The notes beneath the pieces are model-generated. The model was not told the DNA's origin and did no database searches. It saw only the letters and a list, made by a program, of their open reading frames with translations. Position numbers and translations under genes: made by a program. Shown piece after piece: positions 31,901 through 36,285 of a stretch of DNA of 64,000 nt. How positions within the stretch are numbered: the first letter of the stretch is position 1; each line of letters opens with the position of its first letter. Source of the stretch: the human T2T-CHM13v2.0 reference genome, Homo sapiens; assembly GCF_009914755.1 (NCBI RefSeq), contig NC_060947.1; one strand, written 5' to 3'.

Positions 31901-34900
31901 CCTGGATTCATTGATTTTTTGAAGGGTTTTTTGTATCTCTATCTCCTTCAGTTCTGCTCTTATCTTAGTTATTTCTTGCCTTCTGCTAGCTTTTGAATGT
32001 GTTTGCTCTTGCTTCTCTAGTTCTCTTAATTGTGATGTTAGGTTGTCAATTTTAGATCTTTTCTGCTTTCTCTTGTGGGCATTTAGTGCTATAAATTTCC
32101 CTCTACATACTGCTTTAAATGTGTCCCAGAGATTCTGGTATGTTGTGTCTTTTTTCTCATTGGTTTCAAATAACTTTATTTCTGCCTCCATTTCGTTACG
32201 TACCCAGTAGTCATTCAGGAGCAGGTTGTTCAGTTTCCATGTAGTTGAGTGGTTTTGAGTGAGTTTCTTAATCCTGAGTTCTAGTTTGATTGCACTGTGG
32301 TCTGAGAGACAGTTTGTTATAATTTCTGTTCTTTTACATTTTGCTGAGGAGTGCTTTAGTTCCAACTATTTGGTCAATTTTAGAATAAGTGTGGTGTGGT
32401 GCTGAGAATAATGTGTATTCTGTTGATTTGGGGTGGAGAGTTCTGTAGATGTCTATTAGGTCCACTTGGTGCAGAGCTGGGTTCAATTTCTGGATATCCT
32501 CATTAACTTTCTGTCTCATTGATCTAATATTGACAGTGGGGTGTTAAAGTCTCCCATTATTATTGTGTGGGAGTCTAAGTCTCTTTGTAGGTCACTCAGG
32601 ACTTGCTTTATGAATCTGGGTGCTCCTGTATTAGGTGCATATATATTTAGGATAGTTAGCTCTTCTTGTTGAATTGATCCCTTTACCATTATGTAATGGT
32701 CTTCTTTGTCTCTTTTGATCTTTGTTGGTTTAAAGTCTGTTTTATCAGAGACTAGGATTGCAACCCCTGCCTTTTTTTGTTTTCCATTTGCTTGGTAGAT
32801 CTTCCTCCATCCCTTTATGTTGAGTCTATGTGTGTTTCTGCACATGAGATGGGTCTCTGAATGCAGCACACTGATGGGTCTTGACTCTTTATCCAATTTG
32901 CCAGTCTGTGTCTTTTAATGGGAGCATTTAGCCCATTTACGTTTAAGGTTAATATTGTTATGTGTGAATTTGATCCTGTCATTATGATGTTAGCTGGTTA
33001 TTTTGCTCATTAATTGATGCAGTTTCTTCCTAGCCTGGATGGTCTTTAAAATTTGGCATGTTTTTGCAGTGGCTGGTACCGGTTGTTCCTTTCCATGTTT
33101 AGTCCCTCCTTCAGGAGCTCTTTTAGGGCAGGTCTAGTGGTTATAAAATCTCTCAGCATTTGCTTGTCTGTAAAGTATTTTATTTCTCCTTCACTTATGA
33201 AGCTTGGTTTGGCTGGATATGAAATTCTGGGTTGGAAATTCTTTTCTTAAGTATGTTGGATATTGGCCACCACTCTCTTCTGGCTTATAGTTTCTGCCGA
33301 GACATCCGCTATTAGTTTGATGGGCTTCCCTTTGTGGGTAACCCGACCTTTCTCTCTGGCTGCCCTTAACATTTTTTCCTTCATTTCAACTTTGGTGAAT
33401 CTGACAATTTTGTGTCTTGGAGTTGCTCTTCTCGAGGAGCATCTTTGTGGCATTCTCTGTATTTCCTGAATTTGAATGTTGGCCTGCCTTGCTAGGTTGG
33501 GGAACTTCTCCTGGATAATATCCTGCGGAGTATTTTTCAACTTGGTTCCATTCTCCTTGTCACTTTCTGGTACACCAATCAGATGTAGATTTGGTCTTTT
33601 CACGTAGTCCCATATTTCTTGGAGGCTTTATTTTGTTTCTTTTTACTCTTTTTTTCTCTAAACTTCTCTTCTCACTTCATTTCATTCATTTGATCTTCCA
33701 TCACTGATATCTTTTCTTCCAGTTGATCGAATCGGCTACTGAATCTTGTGCATTCATCATGTAGTTCTTGTGCCATGTTTTTCAGCTCCATCAGGTCATT
33801 TAAGGACTTCTCTACATTGGTTATTCTAGTTAGCCATTCATCTAATCTTTTTTCCAGGTTTTTAGCTTCTTTGCAATGGTTTCAAACTTCCTCCTTTAGC
33901 TTTGAGAAGTTTGATCATCTGAAGCCTTCTTGTCTCAACTCATCAAAGTCATTCTCCATCCAGCTTTGTTCCATTGCTGGCAAGGAACTGTGTTCCTTTG
34001 GAGGGGGAGAGGCACTCTGATTTTTAGTATTTTCAGCTTTTCTGCTCCGTTTTTTCCCCATCTTTGTGGTTTTATCTACCTTTGGTCTTTGATGATGGTG
34101 ATGTTCAGATGGGGATTCTGTGTGGATGTCCTTTCTGTTTGTTAGTTTTCTTTCTAACAGTCAGGACCCTCAGCTGCAGGTCTGTTGGAGTTTTCTGGAG
34201 GTCCACTCCAGACTGTGTTTTCCTGGGTATCAGCAGCGGAGGCTGCAGAACAGCGAATATTGCTGAACAGCAAATGTTGCTGCCTGATCGTTCCTCTGGA
34301 AGCTTCATCTCAGAGGGGTACCTGGCCATGTGAGGTATCAGTCTGCCCCTACTGGGGGGTGCCTCCCAGTTAGACTACTCGGGGGTCAGGGACCCACTTG
34401 AGGAGGCAGTCTGTCCGTTCTCAGTTCTCAAACTCTGTGCTGGGAGAACCACTACTCACTTTAAAGCTGTCAGACAGGGATATTTAAGTCTGCAGAGGTT
34501 TCTGTTGCCTTTTGTTCGGCTATGCCCTGCCCCCAGAAGGGGAGTCTACAGAGGCAGGCAGGACTCCTTTAGCTGTGGTGGGCTCCACCCAGTTCAAGCT
34601 TCCTGGCCACTTTGTTTACCTACTCAAGCCTCAGCAATGGCGGGCGCCACTCTCCCAGCCTCGCTGCTGCCTTGCAGATCAATCTCAGACTGCTGTGCTA
34701 GCAATGAGTGAGGCTTCGTGGGCATGGGACCCTCTGAGCCAGGCATGGGATATAATGTCCTTGTGTGCCATTTGCTAAGACTGTTGGAATAGCACAGTAT
34801 TAGGGTGGGAGTGGCCCGATTTTCCAGGTGCTGTCTGTCACCGCTTCCCTTGGCTAGGAAAGAGAATTCCCTGACCCCTTGTTCTTCCCAGGTAAGGCAG

Positions 34901-35086
34901 TGCCTCACCCTGCTTCAGCTCACACTCAGGTGACTGCACCCACTGTCCTGCCCCCACTGTCGGACAAGCCCCAGTGAGATGAACCTGGTACCTCAGTTGG
35001 AAATGCAGAAATCACCTGTCTTCTGCGTCACTCACACTGGGAGCTGTAGACTGGAGCTGTTCCTATTTGGCCATCTTGGAACCATC
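28961..35086 (-). mobile_element. Full-length L1PA6-like LINE-1 (ORF1 ~34061-33046, ORF2 ~32982-29172, both disrupted)
   Basis: 5' UTR with YY1 site (aagatggcc), ORF1/ORF2 fragments, T-tail; TSD tcccaaatagact at 28948-28960 and 35087-35099. Confidence 0.95.
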
Positions 35087-35593
35087 TCCCAAATAGACTC
35101 TTTGGCAGCAGTGACTCTCCAAAACCACCAAGGCCTAGACCTCCTCATTGCTGAGAAAGGAGGACTCTGCACCTTCTTAGGGGAGGAGTGTTGTTTTTAT
35201 ACTGACCAGTCAGGGATGGTACGAGATGCCACCCGATGTTTACAGGAAAAGGCTTCTGAAATCACACAACACCTTTCAAACTCTTATACCAACCTCTGGA
35301 GTTGGGCAACATGGCTTCTCCCCTTTCTCGGTCCCATTGCAGCCATCTTGCTATTACTCGCCTTCAGGCTGTGTATTTTTAACCTCCTTGTCAAATTTGT
35401 TTCCTCTAGAATTGAGGCCGTCAAGCTACAGATGGTCTTACAAATGGGACCCCAAATGAGCTCAACTAACAACTTCTGCCAAGGACCCCTGGACCAACCT
35501 GCTGGCCCTTTCACTGGCCTTAAGAGTTCCCCTCTGGAGGGCACTACAACTGCAGGGCCCCTTCTTTGCCCCTATCCAGCAGGAAGTAGCTAG
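34979..35593 (+). CDS. Candidate chimeric ORF: 36 codons of antisense L1 5' UTR fused in frame to HERV9 env TM (204 aa)
   Basis: ATG at 34979; ISD LQNHQGLDLLIAEKGGL, CX6CC (CTFLGEECC), hydrophobic anchor and tail ending PAGSS*. The frame is certain; expression is unproven. Confidence 0.4.
   Translation: MNLVPQLEMQKSPVFCVTHTGSCRLELFLFGHLGTISQIDSLAAVTLQNHQGLDLLIAEKGGLCTFLGEECCFYTDQSGMVRDATRCLQEKASEITQHLSNSYTNLWSWATWLLPFLGPIAAILLLLAFRLCIFNLLVKFVSSRIEAVKLQMVLQMGPQMSSTNNFCQGPLDQPAGPFTGLKSSPLEGTTTAGPLLCPYPAGSS
35087..35593 (+). pseudogene. env: HERV9 env 3' part (TM subunit), uninterrupted
   Basis: Continues LQ|SQIDSLAAVTLQN across the L1 TSD; open to the env stop. Confidence 0.93.
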
Positions 35594-35649
35594 AGCAGTC
35601 ATCACCCAATTCCCAACAGCAGTTGGGGTGTCCTGTTTAGAGGGGAGAT

Positions 35650-36285
35650 TGAGAGTTCAAGGCAGCTGGGCTTCTGGGTTGGGTGGAGACTTGGAGAGCT
35701 TTTCTGTCTAGCTAAAGGATTTTAAACACACCAATCAGTGCTCTATCTAGCTAAAGGTTTGTAAATGCACCAAGCAGCACTCTGTAAAATGGACCAATCA
35801 GCAGGATGTGGGTGGGGCCAGATAAGGGAATAAAAGCTGGCCACCTGAGCCAGCAGCAGCAACCCACTTTGGTCACCTTCCATGCTGTGGAAGCTTTGTT
35901 CTTTTGCTCTTCACAATAAATCTTGCTGCTCCTCACTCTTTGGGTCCACACTACCTTTATGAGCTGTAACACTCACTGCGAAGGTCTGCAGCTTCACTCC
36001 TGAAGTCAGTGAGACCACAAACCCACTGAGAGGAATAAACAACTCCGGATGCCCCACCTTTAAGAGCTGTAACACACCCTGCGAAAGTCTGCGGCTTCAC
36101 TCCTGAAATCAAGAGATACCATGAACCCACCAGAAGGAAGAAACTGGACACATCTGAACATCTGAAGGAATGAACTCTGGACACACCATCTTTAAGAACT
36201 GTAACACTCACCATGAGAGTCCACAGCTTCGTTCTCGAAGTCAGCGAGACCAAGAACCCACTGGAAGGAACGAATTCTGGACACA
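35650..36285 (+). promoter_or_regulatory. 3' LTR12 (636 bp) preceded by the polypurine tract; poly(A) signal at 35915-35920
   Basis: PPT agaggggaga 35639-35648; homologous to 21614-22298; AATAAA intact. Confidence 0.92.

What the first reader, a model, noticed from the sequence alone, without database searches (positions are those of the whole stretch)
34500..35945. Ready-made chimeric gene: L1 antisense promoter + L1 ATG + intact HERV9 Env TM + LTR poly(A)
Seen: the L1 5' UTR abuts env so that ATG 34979 (G at -3; second ATG at codon 9) reads 36 L1 codons in frame into 168 uninterrupted env codons: immunosuppressive domain LQNHQGLDLLIAEKGGL (35117-35167), CX6CC, membrane anchor and tail to the stop. 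AATAAA follows at 35915. The upstream env half has about five lesions and this half none (suggestive only). Known: L1 5' UTRs have an antisense promoter firing into this flank, and ERV9/HERV-W-type TM ISDs can be immunomodulatory. Inference: two dead elements could together express a membrane-anchored ISD protein with no fusion peptide. Caveats: no signal peptide, a short upstream ORF0 remnant (34638-34711), and a donor cag|gtaagg (34892) that could splice past the ORF.
Basis: partly seen in the sequence, partly recalled or inferred. Interest (0 to 1): 0.8.

Follow-up and report, generated by a model that had tools for sequence, protein, structure and literature searches.

The report
L1-split HERV9 env leaves chance ORF
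An old L1 element landed backwards inside the envelope gene of an even older HERV9 provirus, and the 204-codon reading frame across their junction is real but looks like an accident of decay, not a working gene.

Summary
A HERV9/LTR12 provirus (21614-36285, + strand) is split in env by a full-length minus-strand L1PA5 (28960-35086, 12-bp target duplication). ATG 34979 reads 36 L1-antisense codons in frame into 168 env TM codons, up to the native stop (204 aa).

Each ingredient is ordinary:
- The L1 antisense ATG with a frame open out of the 5' end is generic: 24 of 29 related L1s have it.
- Seven of 149 other HERV9 copies keep the same 168 codons free of stops. Two of the three I checked have 209-aa TM ORFs of their own.
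- This copy survived because three CpG-decayed CGA codons became CAA rather than TGA.
- The "intact" ISD is decayed (LQNHQ where the syncytins read LQNRR). A sequon found in three other open copies is missing here, and the anchor carries an Arg.
- Substitution divergence is the same on both sides of the L1. Pairwise dN/dS is unremarkable (rank 10 of 30).
- A published brain/glioma screen that lists this L1 found no chimeric transcript from it, though two neighbouring L1s in IL1RAPL2 gave some.

Verdict: a neutral relic. Sporadic expression is not excluded. Low interest.

The parts
21610..21613 (+). Provirus target-site duplication GTAA, left copy
   Evidence: Read directly; the same 4 bases follow the 3' LTR at 36286-36289.
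21614..22298 (+). 5' LTR (LTR12-type; TG...CA; poly(A) hexamer here reads AGTAAA at 21928)
   Evidence: Direct repeats with 35650-36285. Sequence. 62 mismatches in 634 aligned positions plus 3 gaps against the 3' LTR. The name LTR12 is recalled from the CCAAT-type U3 repeats, not assigned by a tool.
27639..28959 (+). Upstream env part: signal peptide, SU with CWLC, fusion peptide and start of the TM heptad repeat; broken
   Evidence: Three-frame reading and alignment to natural open relatives L017 and L063. There are 4 frameshifting indels, 2 clear in-frame TAA, one in-frame 3-nt deletion, and one more inferred frame change near 27885.
28948..28959 (.). L1 target-site duplication tcccaaatagac, left copy
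   Evidence: read directly.
28960..35086 (-). Full-length L1PA5 (6127 nt), short poly(A) at 28960; coding frames broken
   Evidence: Poly-T and 3' end. 5' end and ORF1 start. Largest minus-strand ORF is 401 aa. RepeatMasker row in Table S1 of PMC9396940: hg19 chrX:104134485-104140615, minus, L1PA5, 7.5% divergence. The mapping was checked by the distance to a neighbouring L1PA2, found within 8 bp of the predicted place.
34062..35086 (-). L1 5' UTR (the 1027-nt count ran to 35088); the antisense promoter regions described in print would lie near 34637 (+450) and 34887 (+200), firing towards +
   Evidence: 14 CpG, observed/expected 0.2. 89-91% identical to the 39 best other copies. The positions of the ASP regions come from passages of PMC9396940. 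Activity at this copy is not shown.
34637..34711 (+). ORF0 remnant, 24 codons, ATG at L1 nt ~450; acts as an upstream ORF
   Evidence: The usual ORF0 length of about 70 aa is recalled, not checked here.
34892..34897 (+). Donor-like site cag|GTAAGG in the L1 antisense strand
   Evidence: PMC9396940 states that the antisense 5' UTR has two donor sites and that most chimeric transcripts are nevertheless unspliced at the 5' end. That this is one of the two sites is recalled.
34979..35593 (+). Chimeric ORF, 204 aa: 36 L1-antisense codons + 168 env TM codons + TAG
35087..35098 (.). L1 target-site duplication, right copy (codes SQID of the ORF)
35117..35167 (+). ISD-like motif LQNHQGLDLLIAEKGGL (decayed: H,Q where the syncytins have R,R; K at position 14, F at position 20)
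   Evidence: Key positions 14 and 20 are from passages of PMC5640850.
35168..35194 (+). CX6CC (CTFLGEECC)
35312..35395 (+). Membrane anchor, aa ~112-139, with an Arg inside (AFRLCIF)
   Evidence: Kyte-Doolittle scan. Three other open copies read AFGPCIF.
35650..36285 (+). 3' LTR, with AATAAA at 35829 and 35915
36286..36289 (+). Provirus target-site duplication GTAA, right copy

Best explanation
This is a nested pair of dead retroelements in an IL1RAPL2 intron, and the ORF across their junction is a neutral by-product.

How it arose:
- A HERV9/LTR12 provirus integrated in the + orientation, leaving a 4-bp GTAA duplication.
- Later a full-length L1PA5 inserted on the opposite strand by target-primed reverse transcription (12-bp duplication, short poly(A)). 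It landed inside the N-terminal heptad repeat of the env TM subunit.
- L1s of this type carry an antisense ATG about 108 nt from their 5' end, and that frame stays open out of the element. Here it happens to fall in the env frame (one chance in three).
- The 168 env codons downstream have by luck escaped stops and indels.

The frame is not maintained by selection, and no product is shown. At most, an L1 antisense-promoter transcript ending at the LTR poly(A) site appears sporadically where L1s are derepressed.

Shown: the anatomy, the generic nature of both halves, the decay of motifs, and the lack of any constraint signal. Inferred: neutrality, and absence of function.
For: (1) The L1 side is generic. 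27 of 29 related L1 5' ends have ATG at the homologous site. 24 of 29 have an ATG-started antisense ORF that runs past the L1 end, with lengths of 37-140 aa.

(2) The env side is not unique.
- 8 of 150 scored HERV9 TM halves in this genome have no stop, i.e. this one plus 7 of 149 others, 5 of which cover codons 1-168.
- Of the three open copies held as loci, two (L018, L027) carry 209-aa ATG-started ORFs for the whole TM subunit.
- A HERV9 chain with zero stops and shifts in env is already tabulated in PMC4724089, Table 6 passage.
- A passage of PMC13461226 quotes 1731 env-derived ORFs over 80 aa in the human genome.

(3) Survival is a coin toss at CpG sites.
- Stops in 29 relatives cluster at four sites where copies carry CGA, TGA or CAA: codons 15, 46, 132 and 137, with TGA in 11, 10, 6 and 8 of 29.
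- This copy reads CAA, CGA, CAA, CAA.
- From those frequencies about 23% of copies escape all four sites (my arithmetic).

(4) Motif decay.
- ISD codons 14-15 read CAC-CAA (H,Q), where relatives carry CGC/CGA and the syncytins have RR.
- The N-Q-S sequon present in three other open copies reads D-Q-S here. The ORF has no N-X-S/T sequon at all.
- The anchor reads AFRLCIF against AFGPCIF in those copies.

(5) No constraint.
- Identity to relatives is 90.6% upstream of the L1 and 91.0% downstream; outside CpG it is 92.9% and 92.5%. This rests on n=11 of 29 relatives; 18 were dropped because the upstream piece aligned over less than 250 nt.
- Pairwise dN/dS against 29 relatives averages 0.49, rank 10 of 30. 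Mean dN ranks 26 of 30.

(6) Age.
- The LTRs differ at 62 of 634 aligned sites.
- The L1 is 7.5% diverged, and its 5' UTR CpG observed/expected is 0.2.

(7) Expression.
- The L1 is listed among ASP-bearing elements in Table S1 of PMC9396940.
- No chimera with coordinates at its 5' end is in that paper's tables, while an L1PA2 and an L1PA4 in the same gene each have one.
- IL1RAPL2 does not occur in the 10 supplementary files of PMC4908685.
- The hub's RefSeq table has no transcript model here.

(8) Translation handicaps.
- Up to six upstream ATGs (34522-34755) precede the ORF if transcription starts in the +450 region.
- There is no signal-peptide-like core in the first 45 aa.
Against: - The lesion contrast is real: at least 6-7 disabling lesions in 870-1321 nt upstream against none in 504 nt downstream. 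The Poisson probability is about 0.03-0.07, before allowing for the fact that the frame was picked because it is open.
- The 8 strictly private substitutions split 4 nonsynonymous to 4 synonymous, where about 70:30 is expected. This leans towards constraint but is far from significant.
- L1PA5 lies within the subfamilies reported to have an active antisense promoter, and 13.5-20.6% of such elements gave chimeras in brain/glioma.
- There is no ATG between 34755 and 34979. A start in the reported +200 region (~34887) would make 34979 the first AUG and would leave the 34892 donor at the very start of the transcript.
- No poly(A) hexamer interrupts the ORF.
- The residues after the anchor carry net positive charge (K, R, K against one E) and those before it carry none. 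By the positive-inside rule (recalled) this favours the native N-out orientation even without a signal peptide.
- Only brain, glioma and EST-based lists were looked at. No germline, placenta, embryonic-stem-cell, CAGE, Ribo-seq or cross-species data could be examined.
Confidence: 0.9

Rival explanations
1. The L1 antisense promoter, the L1 ATG, the env TM half and the LTR poly(A) signal together form a gene. Its 204-aa (or 196-aa) product inserts in membranes and displays an immunosuppressive domain with a host function.
For: All four sequence ingredients are present in the right order and frame. The L1 belongs to an ASP-bearing subfamily. The flanking charges of the anchor favour the native orientation. 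Truncated env-derived genes with a function exist; suppressyn and Refrex-1 are named in a passage of PMC13461226.
Against: - The ISD has lost both arginines. It carries F at position 20 and a basic residue at position 14, the pattern (R14, F20) that passages of PMC5640850 report for the non-immunosuppressive syncytin-1.
- About 42 residues of the crystallised syncytin-1 TM core are missing, so the trimeric central coil is unlikely to form (inference).
- There is no signal peptide and no glycosylation sequon.
- There is no constraint signal.
- No chimera was seen from this L1 where neighbouring L1s gave them.
- Equal or more complete TM ORFs exist elsewhere in the family.
Confidence: 0.02
2. 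Unselected, sporadic expression. Where L1s lose repression (tumours, early embryo, drug-induced demethylation), the antisense promoter gives an unspliced L1-env-LTR transcript. A little peptide may be made, which could matter only as a transposon-derived antigen.
For: 17% of L1PA1-L1PA7 elements with a 5' UTR gave chimeric transcripts in 11 brain/glioma samples. Most were unspliced at the 5' end, and both poly(A) and non-poly(A) forms occur. A +200 start would make 34979 the first AUG.
Against: This L1 gave none in that study. Its 5' UTR is heavily decayed: 14 CpG, and about 90% identity to its best relatives. It keeps the 129-nt segment (window ~34190-34318) that the neighbouring L1PA2 lacks. 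That segment is recalled, not checked, as the binding region of the repressor ZNF93.
Confidence: 0.1
3. The antisense promoter serves as an alternative promoter of IL1RAPL2. Transcripts would splice from the 34892 donor to downstream exons of the host gene, which lies on the same strand, skipping the env ORF.
For: The donor-like site cag|GTAAGG lies in the L1 antisense strand. [quoted passage not shown]
Against: IL1RAPL2 is absent from all 10 supplementary files of that survey. No RefSeq model starts here (hub table). Only 44 of 1509 chimeras showed splicing in PMC9396940.
Confidence: 0.03

Closest known systems
L1 chimeric transcripts (LCTs) driven by the L1 antisense promoter (PMC4908685, PMC9396940)
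   Same: A full-length L1PA element with its 5' UTR, whose antisense strand points into unique flanking DNA. Continuous read-through from the 5' UTR into the flank is the commonest form.
   Different: No transcript is shown for this L1. The flank is another retroelement's coding remnant, and the L1 antisense strand would supply the start codon.
L1 ORF0 and ORF0-exon fusion proteins (described in passages of PMC4908685 and PMC9396940; the original paper was not read)
   Same: A peptide started on the antisense strand of the L1 5' UTR and continued into non-L1 sequence.
   Different: ORF0 here is cut to 24 codons. The chimeric ORF starts about 340 nt further downstream, in a different antisense frame segment, and joins the flank by read-through, not by splicing.
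HERV9 env TM open frames at other loci (for example the chr8 chain in Table 6 of PMC4724089; loci L018 and L027 here)
   Same: Same family (82-88% protein identity in the best rows), same 168 codons open to the same native stop ...AGSS.
   Different: Those keep their own upstream TM sequence and start at a Met inside the fusion-peptide region (209 aa). This one has 36 L1-derived residues instead, plus extra decay changes.
Syncytin-1 and syncytin-2 TM subunits (PDB 6rx1, 5ha6, 7oix)
   Same: Alignable from the end of the central helix through the ISD, CX6CC, anchor and tail (E=1e-34 to syncytin-2). The tail ends like a native env.
   Different: No SU, signal peptide, fusion peptide or most of the central helix. 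The RR of the ISD is lost. There is no evidence of expression or conservation.
Truncated env-derived host genes such as suppressyn (named in a passage of PMC13461226) and the N-terminally truncated HERV-W Env of Xq22.3 (recalled)
   Same: Partial env frames that can still make protein.
   Different: Those keep SU and receptor-binding parts and have shown expression. The Xq22.3 HERV-W locus is a different place and family from this one (recalled coordinates, not checked).

Membership tests
Gamma-type retroviral Env, TM subunit (Pfam TLV_coat PF00429) | Significant match to the family profile | tested here: met
   E=4.6e-30, 105.3 bits against a cut-off of 22.5; ORF aa 37-141 = profile 448-559 of 560.
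Gamma-type retroviral Env, TM subunit (Pfam TLV_coat PF00429) | CX6CC motif and a C-terminal membrane anchor | tested here: met
   CTFLGEECC at aa 64-72. One hydrophobic segment at aa ~112-139, KD(19) up to 2.62.
Gamma-type retroviral Env, TM subunit (Pfam TLV_coat PF00429) | Canonical ISD core LQNRR-LD-L | tested here: not met
   It reads LQNHQGLDLL. Syncytin-1 and syncytin-2 read LQNRR at the aligned place. Relatives carry CGC/CGA-type codons there.
Gamma-type retroviral Env, TM subunit (Pfam TLV_coat PF00429) | Fusion peptide and full N-terminal heptad repeat joined to the rest of TM | tested here: not met
   These lie at ~28790-28959, 6.1 kb upstream across the L1, and in a broken frame. 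The ORF aligns only from residue 43 of the 108-residue syncytin-1 core.
L1 antisense-promoter chimeric transcript (LCT) | L1PA1-L1PA7 element with a 5' UTR covering nt 400-600, with the flank downstream of the antisense strand | tested here: met
   Row in Table S1 of PMC9396940: L1PA5, full length. Orientation read.
L1 antisense-promoter chimeric transcript (LCT) | Reads or ESTs joining the L1 5' UTR to the flank, starting inside the 5' UTR | tested here: not met
   No row at the L1's 5' end among that paper's chimeras. IL1RAPL2 has only Id_2862 and Id_2863, from other L1s. There is none in PMC4908685. This covers only brain/glioma and EST data.
L1 ORF0 fusion protein | ORF0 open from its ATG (L1 nt ~450) to a donor site, spliced to a downstream exon | tested here: not met
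   ORF0 stops after 24 codons, at 34709-34711. The chimeric ORF has an in-frame stop upstream at 34931, so it cannot be continuous with ORF0.
Co-opted env-derived host gene (syncytin or suppressyn kind) | Frame conserved across species under purifying selection | not testable with these tools
   No other primate genome is held. Within-genome proxies show no constraint.
Co-opted env-derived host gene (syncytin or suppressyn kind) | Regulated expression of an mRNA and protein | tested here: inconclusive
   None found in the tables searched. No RefSeq model (hub table). Germline, placenta and embryonic data were not available.
HERV9 (LTR12) provirus | Two LTRs with target duplication, and env most similar to the high-copy HERV9 group | tested here: met
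   LTR pair and GTAA duplication. 150 scored genomic relatives at 74-88% protein identity, in line with about 285-300 HERV9 chains in PMC4724089. The LTR12 name itself is recalled, not assigned by a repeat library.

The most novel reading that the evidence does not exclude
In cells where old L1s lose repression, transcription starts in the +200 antisense region (~34887). That makes ATG 34979 the first AUG of an unspliced, LTR-polyadenylated mRNA. Its product would insert N-out through its single anchor and act as a TM-only env fragment, for example by mixing with other gamma-type Env trimers or by displaying a syncytin-1-like ISD loop. It would be a gene assembled from two dead elements of different classes.
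Probability: 0.03. Interest if true: 0.55.

Novelty: new member of a known kind. Interest (0 to 1): 0.12.

Why it matters
As it stands it is ordinary: one of many env-derived open frames, and one of thousands of L1 antisense flanks.

It is useful mainly as a caution for screens that look for co-opted retroelement genes by frame length alone.
- Every full-length L1 of this type offers an open-ended antisense start codon.
- Arginine CGA codons decay to either a stop or a glutamine, so a few percent of old env copies stay open by luck.
- Because the element lies in the sense direction inside an IL1RAPL2 intron, plus-strand reads across the junction would be expected from host pre-mRNA. Only cap-based evidence would count.

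If the frame were shown to be expressed and conserved, it would be an unusual case of a gene built from an L1 and an ERV together.

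Tried and rejected
- **Structure.** The AlphaFold2 model of the ORF, made with a 4-row alignment, was poor: mean pLDDT 42.6, pTM 0.19, residues 1-70 all under 50. It gives no verdict and was not searched against fold libraries.
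- **Complex prediction.** No job was sent, since no binding is claimed.
- **References for SU.** The relatives L017, L061 and L062 turned out to lack most of SU, with the pol end and a charged low-complexity stretch joined to the SU C-terminus. The script stopped with an error after printing their frames. L063 was used instead.
- **Papers.** PMC7746726 held no passage on splice donors or ORF0 length. The list of 57 ORF0 fusions, and germline or embryonic datasets, may bear on expression and were not seen.
- **Earlier findings.** The search of earlier findings was not open.
- **Searches for a prior description.** Three searches gave nothing specific: IL1RAPL2 + antisense promoter + LINE-1 (one unrelated paper); L1 antisense promoter + env + HERV + fusion protein; ERV9 + envelope + transmembrane subunit + truncated. 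For some searches only the listings and abstract starts were seen.
- **Considered and rejected.** That this is the known N-terminally truncated HERV-W env locus of Xq22.3: it is a different family, and by recalled coordinates more than 1 Mb away.

Full report
**What is there**

The window holds a two-LTR provirus on the + strand.
- The 5' LTR is 21614-22298 and the 3' LTR is 35650-36285. Both run TG...CA and are flanked by the same four bases, GTAA (21610-21613 and 36286-36289).
- The LTRs differ at 62 of 634 aligned positions, plus three gaps.
- The env gene starts near 27639 with a signal-peptide-like start and an SU carrying CWLC. It runs to a native-looking stop at 35591-35593.
- Env is interrupted by a full-length L1 on the minus strand. 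The L1's poly(A), read as poly-T, begins at 28960. Its ORF1 start is near 34061 and its 5' end is at 35086.
- The 12 bases tcccaaatagac occur on both sides of the L1 (28948-28959 and 35087-35098). This is a classical L1 insertion.
- The L1's own frames are broken; the largest is 401 aa.

The provirus env belongs to a high-copy family. A six-frame search of the window's own genome gave 151 matches to the 168-residue TM half, 150 of them listed, at 74-88% protein identity. That fits the HERV9 group of about 285-300 chains in PMC4724089 (passages). The name LTR12 for the LTR is my recollection of its CCAAT-type U3 repeats, not a tool result.

**The L1 identified**

Table S1 of PMC9396940 (supplement search) has the row hg19 chrX:104134485-104140615, minus strand, L1PA5, full length, 7.5% divergence.

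I tied it to this window in two ways.
- From my recalled hg19 start of IL1RAPL2, the expected place was within about 130 bp of that row.
- Independently, I used the hg19 distance from this row to the L1PA2 of chimera Id_2862 (217,812 bp). An L1 5' end in the same orientation was found in the window's genome within 8 bp of the predicted place.

**The observation**

- ORF 34979-35593 is 204 aa. It consists of exactly 36 codons of L1 antisense sequence, then 168 env codons beginning with the second copy of the target duplication (SQID...), then TAG.
- Pfam TLV_coat matches at E=4.6e-30 over ORF aa 37-141.
- The ORF aligns to syncytin-2 (7oix, E=1.1e-34, ORF 37-158 = residues 404-528). It also aligns to the syncytin-1 TM core (6rx1, ORF 37-101 = chain residues 43-107 of 108).
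- The ISD-like motif, CX6CC, a single hydrophobic anchor and the tail are present.
- AATAAA occurs at 35829 and 35915, and nowhere else on the + strand between 34450 and 35960.

**The L1 half is generic**

I aligned the last 189 nt of the L1 antisense strand to 29 related L1 5' ends taken from the same genome (one search gave 40 scored matches out of 6953 candidates; 29 were held as loci).
- 27 of 29 have ATG at the homologous site.
- 24 of 29 have an ATG-started frame of the same peptide type that runs past the L1 end into whatever lies beyond, for 37-140 aa in all.

So any such L1 that lands antisense in an open frame extends that frame with a start codon one time in three.

**The env half is not unique, and it survived by luck**

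Of the 150 listed rows, 8 have no stop inside the match: this locus and 7 of 149 others, 5 of which cover all 168 codons.

Of the three open copies held as loci:
- L018 and L027 carry ATG-started 209-aa frames for the whole TM subunit, starting inside the fusion-peptide region.
- L010 is open but has no early ATG.

In 29 relatives aligned codon by codon, stops cluster at four sites: codons 15, 46, 132 and 137 of the 168. At these sites copies carry CGA, TGA or CAA, with TGA in 11, 10, 6 and 8 of 29. This is the signature of CpG decay of arginine CGA codons, which gives either a stop or a glutamine. This copy reads CAA, CGA, CAA, CAA. From those frequencies about 23% of copies escape all four sites (my arithmetic).

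The upstream env part of this same provirus is badly broken. Against the natural open relative L063, the stretch 28090-28959 has:
- four frameshifting indels (near 28216, 28322, 28523, 28770);
- one in-frame 3-nt deletion;
- in-frame TAA at 28117 and 28918, with a third, ambiguous one beside the last indel.

One more frame change near 27885 is inferred from the continuity of open frames only. At that lesion density, zero lesions in 504 nt has a Poisson probability of about 0.03-0.07. That agrees with the family-wide 5% and is unremarkable for a frame that was picked because it is open.

**No sign of constraint**

- *Substitutions.* Identity to relatives is the same on both sides of the L1: 90.6% for 28619-28947 and 91.0% for 35099-35590. 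Outside CpG it is 92.9% and 92.5%. This rests on 11 of 29 relatives; the other 18 were dropped because the upstream piece aligned over less than 250 nt. The halves differ only in indels.
- *Pairwise dN/dS.* Nei-Gojobori dN/dS of this copy against the 29 averages 0.49. The same average for each relative ranges 0.34-0.73, so this copy ranks 10th of 30. In mean dN it ranks 26th of 30, among the most changed.
- *Private changes.* Eight strictly private single-base differences split 4 nonsynonymous to 4 synonymous, against about 70:30 expected. The lean is towards constraint, but with eight events it means nothing.

**The protein is a decayed fragment**

- *ISD.* The core reads LQNHQGLDLL where both syncytins read LQNRR. 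Relatives carry CGC and CGA-type codons at those two places.
- *ISD positions 14 and 20.* Here they are K and F. Passages of PMC5640850 report R14 and F20 as the residues that distinguish the non-immunosuppressive syncytin-1 from immunosuppressive envelopes with E14/A20. They also question the assay behind that distinction. So the closest characterised ISD state is the inactive one.
- *Sequon.* The N-Q-S sequon after CX6CC that three other open copies keep reads D-Q-S here. The ORF has no N-X-S/T sequon at all.
- *Anchor.* It reads AFRLCIF where those copies read AFGPCIF.
- *Missing N-terminal parts.* The fusion peptide and about 42 residues of the crystallised TM core lie on the other side of the L1. 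The central trimeric coil is therefore unlikely to form (inference).
- *Targeting.* There is no signal-peptide-like core in the first 45 residues. The positive charges after the anchor would, by the positive-inside rule (recalled), favour the native orientation if the protein inserted at all.

**Could it be expressed?**

Points for:
- L1PA5 lies within the subfamilies said to have the antisense promoter.
- 13.5-20.6% of L1PA1-L1PA8 elements with a 5' UTR were involved in chimeras in 11 brain/glioma samples. For L1PA1-L1PA7 as a group the share was 17%.
- Most of those chimeras were unspliced at the 5' end.
- Starts are described at about +450 and +200 (passages of PMC9396940).
- A +200 start (~34887) would make 34979 the first AUG, because there is no ATG between 34755 and 34979.

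Points against:
- A +450 start puts up to six upstream ATGs before the ORF, including the 24-codon ORF0 remnant at 34637 in good context.
- The 5' UTR is decayed: 14 CpG, observed/expected 0.2.
- This L1 has no chimera in that paper's tables, whereas an L1PA2 and an L1PA4 in the same gene each have one, with 2 reads in one sample.
- IL1RAPL2 does not appear in the supplementary files of the EST survey PMC4908685.
- RefSeq has no model here (hub table).

I could not see germline, placental, embryonic, CAGE or Ribo-seq data. Paper reading closed.

**Verdict**

The most likely account is a neutral relic whose frame is the product of three independent pieces of luck: orientation and frame of a generic L1 antisense ORF, three CGA codons decaying to CAA rather than TGA, and no indel in 504 nt. 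Its novelty is that of one more member of two known kinds: L1 antisense flanks and env-derived open frames. I found no prior description of this particular chimeric frame.

Noticed in passing
window 27346-27571; loci L017, L061, L062: A GA-rich low-complexity stretch sits between pol and env. In several relatives it is read in frame as a K/E/R-rich segment that joins the pol C-terminus directly to the SU C-terminus. A common HERV9 form therefore seems to lack most of SU.
   Followed up: partly
window 23188-23442 and 23437-23592: Tandem repeats of 85 nt (3 copies, 80-92% alike) and about 80 nt (2 copies, 91%) lie in the leader/gag region of the provirus.
   Followed up: no
window 21614-22298 versus 35650-36285: The 5' LTR has about 49 nt more in its U3 repeats than the 3' LTR. 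Its poly(A) hexamer reads AGTAAA (21928), whereas the 3' LTR keeps AATAAA.
   Followed up: partly
window 15889-16536: An L1 3'-end fragment in the same orientation, 87-94% identical to 28960-29604. It is a separate older insertion upstream of the provirus.
   Followed up: no
window ~34190-34318; locus L064: This L1PA5 keeps a 129-nt segment of the 5' UTR that the L1PA2 about 218 kb upstream in the same gene lacks. It is recalled, not checked, as the segment bound by the repressor ZNF93.
   Followed up: partly
outside the window: hg19 chrX:103916780-103922803 and chrX:104273935-104280073: Two other minus-strand full-length L1s in IL1RAPL2 (an L1PA2 and an L1PA4) have published chimeric reads running in the sense direction of the gene (Id_2862 and Id_2863, 2 reads each in one sample).
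   Followed up: no
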